From Eledone cirrhosa (Eukaryota), in the NCBI GenBank assembly GCA_964016885.1, contig CAXHJY010001451.1, forward strand, positions 1 to 64,000: a stretch of DNA of 64,000 nucleotides, written 5' to 3'. The notes beneath the pieces are model-generated. The model searched no databases. It had not been told where the DNA came from and worked only from the letters and a program-made list of their open reading frames with translations. Position 1 is the first letter of the stretch, and each line of letters begins with the position of its first letter. Shown piece by piece: positions 49,515 through 50,853 of the stretch. Position numbers and translations under genes: made by a program.

Positions 49515-49588
49515 GAAAGCAATTTTTAGACAACTTAATCAATATATATATATATAAGATCAAAAGATGGTTAAAGGAGTTCCATGTA

Positions 49589-49655
49589 TTTTATTATGCG
49601 CATTTCAAAAACAAACATCATCATGCAATAATATTTGTGTTTTCATCAGATAAAA
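49589..49655 (-). ncRNA. Minimal type I hammerhead (left arm of palindrome 49552-49850; sense to host)
   Basis: Reverse complement of 49747-49813, with two changes in stem/loop II. Confidence 0.78.
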
Positions 49656-49746
49656 CAGGAGAACATGTTGATTTAAACAGGAGATATGTTGATTTAAAAC
49701 TGCACTATCCACAAGTGTTTTTTAGCCTTCATATCATGTTCTCCTG

Positions 49747-49813
49747 TTTTATCTGATGAAAACACAAATGTTATAGCATGATGATGTTTGTTTTTGAAAT
49801 GCGCATAATAAAA
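49747..49813 (+). ncRNA. Minimal type I hammerhead (right arm)
   Basis: ttttat-CTGATGA-[aaac..gttttt]-GAAA-tgcgca-TA-ataaaa; palindromic ATGCGCAT stem III; AUA site at 49805-49807. Confidence 0.8.
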
Positions 49814-49938
49814 TACATGGAACTCCTTTAACCATCTTTTGATCTTATATATTATGTATACTCCAGTCCTACAAACTGTAGAGTGCTTCTTATCCGATAT
49901 CTGCATTGCTTTATTGTACTACAATAAAACTCACCTCC

Positions 49939-49986
<48 letters not shown>

Positions 49987-49987
<1 letters not shown>

Positions 49988-50301
49988 TAGCCGATTTACC
50001 CGCGCCTTGCTGCGCTTACATATAAAAAAGTAGAGACATCAACTAATAATTTTTGTTGTCATAAGTCTAGTGATGTTTTGCCAGAGATAAAATGTCTAAA
50101 TTAGCCAAATTTTACTATAAAAGGGAGATGCTTTTTTGTTGATATATGTTTAATTAATAGAAAAACCCCTGATAATAGAGGTTCCTATACTAAAGTTATG
50201 GGCTTCCAAAGTTTTTTCTATAGTGGGTTTAACTCCCATTAGTTGAGTGTTGTTACAAGGTGTTGTTGTTATAAGGAAAAAAATAGAAGTTTTGGAGTAG
50301 A
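49987..50301 (-). mobile_element. Non-autonomous Helitron (315 bp)
   Basis: Minus strand A|TCTAC... GCGC-agcaag-GCGC hairpin ..CTAG|T; no TSD. Confidence 0.7.
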
Positions 50302-50346
50302 TATACGATATTAAACAAATGGAAACTATATTTATAAAACCATATT

Positions 50347-50412
50347 TATTTCATTATACATATTTCAGGGATACCATATTAAAAATATGGCATGCCTTCT
50401 TCAGATAAAATA
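50347..50412 (-). ncRNA. Minimal type I hammerhead (left arm of palindrome 50301-50674; sense to host)
   Basis: Exact reverse complement of 50563-50628. Confidence 0.8.
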
Positions 50413-50562
50413 CAATATAAGCAGTTTTATAAATAAATTTGACGTACCATAAAATATTGATCAACTTCCATTTAAAAAAAACTTTTCAAACCAACTTTTT
50501 TAAATGGAAGTTGATCAATATTTTATGGTACGTCAAATTTATTTATAAAACTGCTTATATTG

Positions 50563-50628
50563 TATTTTATCTGAAGAAGGCATGCCATATTTTTAATATG
50601 GTATCCCTGAAATATGTATAATGAAATA
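50563..50628 (+). ncRNA. Minimal type I hammerhead (right arm)
   Basis: tattttat-CTGAAGA-[aggcatgccatatt ttt aatatggtatccct]-GAAA-tatgta-TA-atgaaata; 8-bp stem I, long stem II. Confidence 0.82.
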
Positions 50629-50668
50629 AATATGGTTTTATAAATATAGTTTCCATTTGTTTAATATC

Positions 50669-50705
<37 letters not shown>

Positions 50706-50763
50706 TTTTAATATAGATGAGATTCTACAGGACTAGAACTGTTTCATTCTTTAAAAATCATCA

Positions 50764-50816
50764 GGGATTCCTGATGATTTCTAAAGAATGAAACAGTTCT
50801 AGTCCTGTAGAATCTC
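50764..50816 (+). ncRNA. Type I hammerhead in palindrome 50704-50831
   Basis: gggattc-CTGATGA-[tttc taaa gaat]-GAAA-cag ttctagtc ctg-TA-gaatctc; GUA site at 50807-50809; 10.1-11.1 is a U-U mismatch. Confidence 0.75.
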
Positions 50817-50853
50817 ATCTATATTAAAACTTTTATACTCCGATTGAACCCGG

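What the first reader, a model, noticed from the sequence alone, without database searches (positions are those of the whole stretch)
49552..50831. Ribozyme island: three different hammerhead palindromes within 1.3 kb, next to a Helitron and an HDV-like candidate
Seen: three near-perfect inverted repeats (49552-49850, 50301-50674, 50704-50831), each arm carrying a hammerhead core. Five are complete; the minus arm of the third lacks stem I. The stems are unrelated in sequence, so these are three families. A Helitron lies between the first two and the HDV-like head starts at 50891. A truncated copy of the first family is at 43372-43428. Known: PLE pLTRs carry minimal type I hammerheads with palindromic stem III. 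Inference: protein-less, palindromic hammerhead mini-elements that present a ribozyme whichever strand is transcribed. On the host strand the antisense arm is made first, so the long hairpin could silence the ribozyme and create dsRNA for ADAR or Dicer. The clustering suggests a TA-rich insertion hotspot.
Basis: partly seen in the sequence, partly recalled or inferred. Interest (0 to 1): 0.78.

Follow-up and report, generated by a model that had tools for sequence, protein, structure and literature searches.

The report
Penelope leader palindromes beside virus-like RNA
The three hairpins are pieces of three abundant Penelope-type jumping genes, each likely made when two DNA copies of the element's short front end were joined head to head, and the neighbouring 'HDV-like' repeat instead begins with a fold predicted to be the exonuclease-blocking RNA knot known from flaviviruses.

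Summary
The three palindromes and five complete hammerhead cores are real and multi-copy, but they are not independent mini-elements. Each is the 5' leader/pLTR end (start site, hammerhead, 'tail') of a Hydra-type Penelope-like retrotransposon; I found the protein-coding parent of all three. Long copies instead run through into the 3' pLTR (23 of 30; none stops at the start), which fits a circular or switched template. Opposite-strand hammerhead pairs and inverted/tail PLE structures are published; clustering is ordinary (6 of 76 loci similar). The surprise is the 'HDV-like' head: no HDV match, but a flavivirus class-1a xrRNA layout at the fixed 5' end of a ~615-bp SINE-like repeat (8,838 exact head matches), with covariation. 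Xrn1 resistance is untested.

The parts
49552..49667 (-). P1 untailed arm (leader nt ~54-172, 5'-truncated), with complete hammerhead at 49657-49587
49668..49681 (.). P1 junction: short insert made of repeated leader bases
49682..49943 (+). P1 tailed arm: extra G at 49683, predicted start site at 49684, hammerhead 49745-49815, tail 49851-49943 with the TACTCC...GAGTG hairpin motif from 49859; leader/pLTR end of Hydra-type PLE H1
49987..50286 (-). Helitron-like fragment: 3' hairpin and CTAG end at 49987; 5' end not established; low read depth
50287..50479 (-). P2 tailed arm (tail cut to 14 nt at 50287-50300), hammerhead 50412-50347; leader of Hydra-type PLE H6
50487..50674 (+). P2 untailed arm, hammerhead 50563-50628
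50704..50765 (-). P3 untailed arm, truncated inside stem I, so no complete hammerhead
50764..50858 (+). P3 tailed arm from the predicted start site: hammerhead 50764-50816, tail 50832-50858 with an internal deletion; leader of Hydra-type PLE H4
50889..50965 (+). xrRNA-like head (class 1a layout plus P4 hairpin at 50954-50965) of a SINE-like repeat; this copy has two substitutions in core pairs and fails the descriptor
50889..51968 (+). SINE-like repeat (~615-bp unit, here with internal duplications), no ORF; middle shared with the 5' UTR of an RTE-type LINE
43372..43428 (-). Lone untailed P1 piece, starts inside stem II, no ribozyme
312..920 (+). Second, unit-length copy of the xrRNA-headed SINE-like repeat

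Best explanation
The three palindromes are the hammerhead-bearing leader/pLTR ends of three protein-coding Hydra-type Penelope-like elements, and each was likely produced in one insertion event by two reverse transcriptions that were joined head to head. Shown: parentage, one tailed plus one untailed arm, variable junctions, (TA)n flanks. Inferred mechanism: the PLE protein nicks both strands of a (TA)n target and primes two cDNAs on the same uncleaved, capped element RNA, one from an internal site (untailed arm) and one from the tail end (tailed arm), each a few bases 5' of a small hairpin motif; both copy the 70-280-nt leader toward the start site, stop there or earlier, and their 3' ends are joined by microhomology. 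Because the hairpin beyond the tail end is not copied, the palindromes would be dead ends. Long copies would come from templates in which the 5' end is joined to the 3' pLTR (hammerhead-cleaved circle, or a template switch). Separately, the neighbouring SINE-like repeat begins with a fold predicted to stall 5'-3' exonucleases (probability about 0.55).
For: Parents: P3 tail runs into an ORF and the same sequence closes the 3' UTR 1.37 kb after the stop (L294); P2 tail runs into an ORF (L375) and follows the C-terminus; P1 follows ORF H1 at ~0.9 kb in L205, L220, L221, L222 and its tail runs into an ORF start in L347 and L360. Hydra hallmarks of PMC8557442 section 11 are present. Arm classes: 131 of 141 head-to-head pairs are tailed+untailed, 3 tailed+tailed, 3 untailed+untailed (2 are the window's own damaged tails), 4 unresolved; the untailed arm reaches further 5' in 59, the tailed in 18, equal in 54; 6 P1 pairs have arms that do not overlap, so neither can be a copy of the other. 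Short arms that reach the start carry G at -1 in 35 of 59 P1 cases against C in 37 of 39 long arms; long P3 has a TATA box 30 nt before an initiator-like start. Of 30 5'-complete H4 copies 23 run past the start into the upstream pLTR, 7 end inside the leader, 0 end at the start. Arms of one copy share subfamily variants (P1 mean 1.9 differences within, 4.3 between copies) and 0 of 137 pairs mix families. The same junction recurs in different P1 subfamilies and in both polarities. In vitro, a Poseidon PLE nicks and extends both strands, starts at two internal sites that bound the tail, needs RNA 3' of them, and uses uncleaved RNA (PMC11167929).
Against: No RNA data: start sites, caps, cleavage and circles are inferred (0 laid from two RNA runs of other organisms). 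The extra G is clear only for P1; P3 7 of 21 and P2 1 of 12. The hairpins 3' of the start sites are weak (-1.3 to -6.0 kcal/mol) and the P3 second one has a different sequence. Five of the six non-overlapping pairs came from loci I picked as partial hits. Short arms are not enriched in broken cores (P1 3 of 80 short, 5 of 54 long; P2 6 of 69, 0 of 19), so 'short = ribozyme-dead source' fails. Pfam and PDB give no hit on the Hydra-type ORFs; clade assignment rests on motifs, no tree. Arm identity could also reflect later gene conversion.
Confidence: 0.8

Rival explanations
1. The palindromes are self-propagating, protein-less mini-elements: a palindromic copy is transcribed and mobilised in trans as a unit.
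For: Top-scoring P3 copies share one 128-bp layout at 98-99% identity; some P1 junctions recur.
Against: That uniformity is a search bias: position-ordered P3 matches show spacers from 3 nt to 10 kb. The shared P3 junction occurs in both polarities relative to the tail (23 and 7 of 30) and P1 junctions recur across subfamilies. A palindrome-internal transcript would fold into a long hairpin. Short copies lack the TATA region and the sequence beyond the tail.
Confidence: 0.07
2. The templates are short RNAs made from the promoter of solo or 3' pLTRs, and the tail marks endonuclease resolution of an intermediate rather than a second start site in the leader.
For: 11 of 30 position-ordered P3 arms and 12 of 28 P1 arms carry the upstream promoter region, so thousands of solo promoters exist; PMC8557442 attributes the tail to EN-mediated resolution.
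Against: Both ends are fixed to within a few bases in three families and each precedes a similar motif, the second of which exists only in the leader; PMC11167929 maps RT starts at both tail borders and needs downstream RNA.
Confidence: 0.1
3. One cDNA folds back on itself at its 3' end and copies itself, or the palindromes are fold-back artefacts of sequencing or assembly.
For: Arms are often identical (14 of 35 P1 and 15 of 37 P2 locus entries, some loci counted twice).
Against: Non-overlapping arms and frequent longer untailed arms cannot come from self-copying; kilobase-scale versions have the same layout; reads of another sample cover the loops.
Confidence: 0.02
4. For the element at 50889: the head is a self-cleaving ribozyme (HDV-like or other) or a tRNA-derived promoter, and the xrRNA resemblance is coincidence.
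For: Fixed 5' ends are what RTE-type ribozymes give (recalled; PMC4209133 cites HDV ribozymes in non-LTR elements); the Rfam xrRNA match is far below the curated cut-off (23.8 against 54.5 bits, E 0.028 on 181 nt; 11.4 bits, E 7.5 for an older copy); only P2 shows repeated two-sided changes within the family; my descriptor was written after seeing the motif.
Against: No HDV-family model matched; all class 1a elements named in PMC8917146 and PMC8571300 are in place and begin 2-4 nt from the element's end; descriptor hits 12 heads in 1.95 Mb and nothing else, 0 of 120 anchored controls, 1 in 1.17 Mb of shuffles. The A-box-like bases are not kept in older subfamilies while the hairpin is.
Confidence: 0.3

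Closest known systems
Hydra-clade Penelope-like elements (Craig et al. 2021, PMC8557442)
   Same: C-terminal GIY-YIG, RW(K/R/I) and DKT motifs, CxCX5C linker, CxxC and CxH motifs, hammerhead in the pLTR, (TA)n targets, inverted 5'-truncated partner and one-sided tail.
   Different: Described there as few families in cnidarians and some other aquatic invertebrates, tails 30-40 bp; here several young families with thousands of copies, tails 67-90 nt, and a large class of leader-only palindromes bounded by the start site.
Dual minimal hammerheads on opposite strands in Schistosoma mansoni (Cervera and de la Pena 2014, PMC4209133)
   Same: Pairs of PLE hammerheads 100-700 bp apart on opposite strands, ascribed to truncated PLEs; palindromic stem III; circular-template model for tandem pLTRs proposed there.
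   Different: That paper (parts 1-2 of 4 read) does not dissect arms, tails, start sites or junctions.
Poseidon PLE of Anolis in vitro (Frangieh et al. 2024, PMC11167929)
   Same: Both strands nicked and extended, two internal RT starts bounding the tail, uncleaved RNA as template, AT-rich target.
   Different: Different clade; no account of joined head-to-head products or of run-off at the capped end in the parts read.
Non-LTR retrozymes (PMC7229834; bioRxiv 10.64898/2026.07.22.740005)
   Same: Short, protein-less, type I hammerhead, derived from PLE pLTRs.
   Different: Retrozymes are head-to-tail tandems giving circular RNAs; these are head-to-head and asymmetric. Tandem P1 and P3 forms were seen only occasionally (L080).
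Flavivirus class 1a xrRNA (Rfam RF01415; PMC8571300, PMC8917146)
   Same: GU before a 5-bp P1, three-way junction, single unpaired C between P2 and P3, 2-bp PK1, U.A-U triple positions, 4-bp PK2 from L3, downstream P4 hairpin.
   Different: Sits at the 5' end of a cellular SINE-like repeat, not in a viral 3' UTR; score below the Rfam cut-off; resistance untested; origin (capture or convergence) unknown.

Membership tests
Hydra-clade PLE | Single ORF with RT and C-terminal GIY-YIG endonuclease | tested here: met
   RT motifs and Y-x-G-x-T..FKxR domain aligned in H1, H4 and two sister families; by motif only, Pfam gave no hit
Hydra-clade PLE | RWK motif and DKG changed to DKT | tested here: met
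   RIRWR and SDKT in H4 and H6; RLRWI in the H1 start, DKT region of H1 not held
Hydra-clade PLE | CxCX5C linker; CxxC and CxH around conserved E and N; no CCHH | tested here: met
   H1 and H4; C-terminus of H6 read
Hydra-clade PLE | Hammerhead in the pLTR and insertion into (TA)n | tested here: met
   124 of 135 units next to (TA)4
Hydra-clade PLE | Phylogenetic placement of the RT | not tested
   no reference Hydra proteins were at hand
PLE insertion structure | Inverted 5'-truncated partner, partial tandem pLTR, tail at one end | tested here: met
Non-LTR retrozyme | Head-to-tail tandem repeats each with a hammerhead | tested here: not met
   window copies and 141 pairs are head-to-head
MITE / foldback DNA transposon | Symmetric terminal inverted repeats and a fixed internal layout | tested here: not met
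   one-sided tail, variable junction
Type I hammerhead ribozyme | CUGANGA / GAAA / UH core with stems I-III | tested here: met
   5 complete in the finding; core intact in 208 of 222 P1/P2 arms; Rfam gives only a partial sub-threshold Hammerhead_3 match
Type I hammerhead ribozyme | Self-cleavage | not testable with these tools
   needs an assay; PLE minimal hammerheads cleave weakly and as dimers (PMC4209133)
HDV-like ribozyme (head at 50889) | Nested double pseudoknot P1, P1.1, P2, P3, P4 | tested here: not met
   no HDV-family Rfam match at E<=10; P2-P3 adjacency and P1.1 could not be drawn on the alignment
Class 1a xrRNA (head at 50889) | P1-P2-P3 three-way junction plus P4, unpaired C at J2/3 | tested here: met
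   helices 92-94% paired over 23 copies; slid controls 26-49%
Class 1a xrRNA (head at 50889) | GU upstream of P1 forming PK1, U.A-U triple positions | tested here: met
   PK1 93.5% paired; the U is invariant, A-U kept in 22 of 23; window copy itself breaks PK1
Class 1a xrRNA (head at 50889) | PK2 of 2-7 bp between L3 and the strand after P1 | tested here: met
   4 bp, 95.7% paired, one two-sided and three wobble changes
Class 1a xrRNA (head at 50889) | Rfam gathering score | tested here: not met
   23.8 and 11.4 bits against 54.5
Class 1a xrRNA (head at 50889) | Resistance to Xrn1 | not testable with these tools
   needs an assay
Helitron (49987-50286) | 3' hairpin and CTRR end before T | tested here: met
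   same terminal 33 nt in 2 other loci
Helitron (49987-50286) | 5' TC after A; Rep/helicase partner | tested here: inconclusive
   other end abuts the cut P2 tail, no A|TC; partner not searched

The most novel reading that the evidence does not exclude
This genome holds a high-copy retroposon whose 5' end is set not by a promoter or ribozyme but by a flavivirus-type exoribonuclease-resistant knot: host 5'-3' decay would trim read-through transcripts down to the knot and release the element's RNA, giving a cellular counterpart of sfRNA. Beside it, the palindromes would be the 'strong-stop' products of Penelope elements, showing that all PLE reverse transcription starts in the 5' leader from a dimer priming both target strands.
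Probability: 0.45. Interest if true: 0.85.

Novelty: new variant of a known kind. Interest (0 to 1): 0.6.

Why it matters
How Penelope-like elements make their tandem, inverted and tailed insertions is called undefined in PMC8557442. Thousands of young copies here give a natural read-out: two fixed starts in the leader, two independent cDNAs per insertion, run-off at the start site for short arms and passage into the 3' pLTR for long ones. That yields direct tests (5' RACE, divergent RT-PCR across the cleavage site, in vitro priming). The palindromes also seed the genome with many perfect hairpins, of possible relevance to RNA editing if transcribed (untested). The xrRNA-like head would be, as far as three literature searches show, an unreported cellular use of a fold known from RNA viruses, and a third way, after promoters and ribozymes, for a retroposon to define its 5' end.

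Tried and rejected
Rfam on the whole window and on the finding gave only miRNA-type hairpin and microsatellite matches below cut-off. GIY-YIG (PF01541) search led to Neptune/Poseidon-like families that are not the parents; the parents were found by walking upstream from long copies. H2, H3 and H5 ORFs near P1/P3 copies are nested insertions of other Hydra-type families. Pfam, PDB and a pairwise BLAST did not recognise the Hydra-type ORFs (best E 0.018, 103). Idea that short copies come from ribozyme-dead RNAs: rejected. Idea that the two arms come from different families' RNAs: 0 of 137. Idea that full-length copies start at the cleavage site: only 1 of 30 starts next to it. C19:30737060 is not the window's own locus; it has a similar junction in opposite polarity. 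Single-arm hammerhead folds are no more stable than shuffles (z -0.03 to -1.9). An RTE-type LINE shares the SINE's middle part but has the xrRNA-like head in 0 of 20 copies, so no autonomous partner with that head was found. A motif scan of viral contigs gave chance matches only and served as a control. Two RNA runs from other organisms laid nothing. Whether related species keep the head with compensatory changes is open. Earlier-findings look-ups returned nothing relevant.

Full report
SETTING. The window is contig C1478 of a 3.0-Gb assembly with about 28 chromosome-scale contigs, rich in TA/TG microsatellites; I take it to be an octopus-like mollusc genome (inference, not tested).

OBSERVATION. 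The three inverted repeats (P1 49552-49850, P2 50301-50674, P3 50704-50831) are as described, with 0-2 mismatches between arms. Five complete type I hammerhead cores are present and the minus arm of P3 lacks stem I. All three are dispersed repeats: 606, 1,005 and 1,612 first-look candidates and 6,154, 120 and 7,204 exact matches to 32-41-nt words. Hammerhead-like motifs are common here: 25 descriptor hits in 39 random 10-kb samples against 0-1 in five shuffles, roughly 60 per Mb. Raw reads of another sample with the same species label cover all three families, with about 13 and 23 reads over the loops of P2 and P3; two RNA runs from other organisms laid nothing.

Every family has a tail on one side only: about 90 nt (P1), 84 nt (P2), 67 nt (P3), followed by (TA)n. 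In the window the P1 tail is whole, the P2 tail is cut to 14 nt by the Helitron-like piece and the P3 tail has an internal deletion. Over all held loci, 131 of 141 head-to-head pairs have one tailed and one untailed arm; 3 are tailed twice, 3 untailed twice (two are the window's damaged copies), 4 unresolved (74 pairs were picked by similarity to the full palindrome, 67 were not). Junctions vary: position-ordered P3 matches show spacers from 3 nt to about 10 kb. Either arm can be the longer one (untailed 59, tailed 18, equal 54) and in 6 P1 pairs the arms cover non-overlapping parts of the unit (five from loci picked as partial hits, one from a position-ordered list). Neither arm can then be a copy of the other, so each insertion needs two cDNA starts. 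The two arms come from one source: within-copy differences average 1.9 against 4.3 between copies for P1 (1.0 and 1.6 for P2), subfamily variants sit in both arms, and 0 of 137 pairs mix families.

PARENTS. About 40% of position-ordered arms continue upstream (11 of 30 P3 arms with a TATA box; 12 of 28 P1 arms). Walking upstream gives RT plus C-terminal GIY-YIG ORFs: H1 ends about 0.9 kb before P1, H4 1.37 kb before P3, H6 about 1.3 kb before P2. The same unit also forms the 5' leader: past the tail end the sequence runs into the ORF start in L294 and L227 (P3), L375 (P2) and L347, L360 (P1). The proteins show the Hydra-clade marks listed in PMC8557442 section 11: RW(R/I), DKT, CxCX5C, CxxC and CxH. 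Pfam and PDB do not recognise them, and I built no tree. P1 and P2 are sister families, P3 more distant. Kilobase-scale insertions with ORF pieces between the arms have the same tailed/untailed layout, as does an unrelated Neptune-like family (L128).

THE 5' BOUNDARY. Short arms stop at a fixed point that in long copies is an initiator-like site, 30 nt behind a TATA box in P3. At that point short P1 arms have G in 35 of 59 cases where long arms have C in 37 of 39, the pattern expected from copying a cap (established for other retroposons; recalled); P3 shows it in 7 of 21 and P2 in 1 of 12. In contrast, of 30 H4 copies that include the ORF start, 21 carry the upstream promoter region, 2 more pass the start site, 7 end inside the leader and none ends at the start. 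Each cDNA start lies 1-9 nt before a small hairpin with a TACTC/TGCTC...GAG motif (five of six sites; weak folds; similar motifs in other families). The second lies beyond the tail end, so it is absent from short copies and from 3' pLTRs (74 of 76 P1 and 49 of 50 P2 tail ends run into microsatellite).

MECHANISM (inferred). A PLE protein, probably a dimer, nicks both strands of (TA)n and primes two cDNAs on one uncleaved capped RNA from the two leader sites; they run off at or before the start and are joined by microhomology, sometimes with short templated inserts like 49668-49681. This matches the in vitro behaviour of an Anolis Poseidon (both strands extended, two internal starts bounding the tail, downstream RNA required, uncleaved RNA used; PMC11167929). 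Long copies need the leader joined to the 3' pLTR: a hammerhead-made circle as proposed in PMC4209133, a template switch, or read-through of tandem arrays; my data do not separate these. Short arms are not enriched in broken cores. A transcript across a whole palindrome would fold into a hairpin of -96 to -269 kcal/mol that buries the ribozyme; whether that happens in cells is untested.

CLUSTERING. P1/P2/P3-like units occur at 23 per 390 kb at random and 34 per 210 kb next to another unit (2.7-fold); 6 of 76 loci have two or more neighbours within 1.38 kb; 124 of 135 units touch (TA)4. The island is a routine pile-up in a TA run.

HELITRON. A hairpin and CTAG|T end at 49987 (- strand) recur in 2 other held loci; no 5' end was found. 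Helitron-like fragment, no more.

THE 'HDV-LIKE' HEAD. It starts a ~615-bp ORF-less repeat with 8,838 exact matches to a 33-nt head word; copies that keep the head begin at the same point. No HDV-family model matched. The best Rfam match for a typical copy is RF01415, the flavivirus xrRNA (23.8 bits, E 0.028 on 181 nt, cut-off 54.5); an older copy gives only that family, weakly (11.4 bits, E 7.5). Every class 1a feature named in PMC8917146 and PMC8571300 is in place: GU before P1, 2-bp PK1, triple positions, lone C between P2 and P3, 4-bp PK2, P4. Against the Rfam consensus, two core pairs are changed on both sides. Over 23 copies 93.6% of cells pair, against 26-49% for slid partners; two-sided changes are repeated only in P2 (related sequences inflate such counts). 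A descriptor written after seeing the motif hits 12 heads and nothing else in 1.95 Mb, 0 of 120 anchored controls and once in 1.17 Mb of shuffles. The copy at 50889 is worn and fails it. The repeat's middle is shared with the 5' UTR of an RTE-type LINE, but that LINE lacks the head in 20 of 20 copies. I put the chance that it is a working exonuclease block at about 0.55. Searches for xrRNA with retrotransposon terms listed only engineering uses and unrelated papers; the library lacks most subscription papers.

PRIOR ART. Opposite-strand hammerhead pairs 100-700 bp apart, ascribed to truncated PLEs, are in PMC4209133; inverted partners and tails are in PMC8557442; retrozymes as PLE derivatives in the 2026 preprint and PMC7229834. 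Searches listed no paper on start-site-bounded leader palindromes or on these elements in octopods. What I saw: PMC8557442 passages and section 11; PMC11167929 parts 1-2 of 4; the preprint parts 1-3 of 5; PMC4209133 parts 1-2 of 4; PMC7229834, PMC8571300 and PMC8917146 passages; no supplements.

VERDICT. Interest 0.6.

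Noticed in passing
window 40312-40366 (-); L203: Hammerhead of a further PLE family that also forms palindrome-plus-tail insertions elsewhere, with the same TACTCC...GGAGT motif after the untailed end.
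   Followed up: partly
window 1080-1140 (+): Another hammerhead family (CCACTGG stem III), also seen in random sample L274.
   Followed up: no
L122, L123, L127, L131, L132, L134: A young Neptune-like PLE family (938-aa ORF) whose pLTR has a hammerhead-like motif with a non-canonical core (CAGAAGA in place of CUGANGA) in all copies seen.
   Followed up: no
L080 end, L133, L204, L132: Palindrome-plus-tail family built on a canonical, Schistosoma-like hammerhead (label recalled) whose inversion point often lies inside stem II.
   Followed up: no
reads laid on window 50766-50834: Head-to-tail tandem junction of the P3 hammerhead unit (about 78 nt) in raw DNA reads and contigs of other samples, a retrozyme-like form; a 339-bp tandem of a P1 arm at L080.
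   Followed up: no
L127 6600-7000: A fourth long palindrome family with a ~150-nt tail.
   Followed up: no
G000:C1 38.97 Mb and other places: xrRNA-headed repeats occur in short tandem runs about 800 bp apart; several subfamilies share the head but differ in body and 3' end.
   Followed up: no
window 43853-47224 (+): Long open frame of an APE-RT LINE (about 900 aa after the microsatellite), apparently intact.
   Followed up: no
L272 7666-6600 (-): An old xrRNA-like head about 750 nt upstream of a decayed RTE-type endonuclease start; could be a trace of an autonomous element with this head or a chance neighbour.
   Followed up: partly
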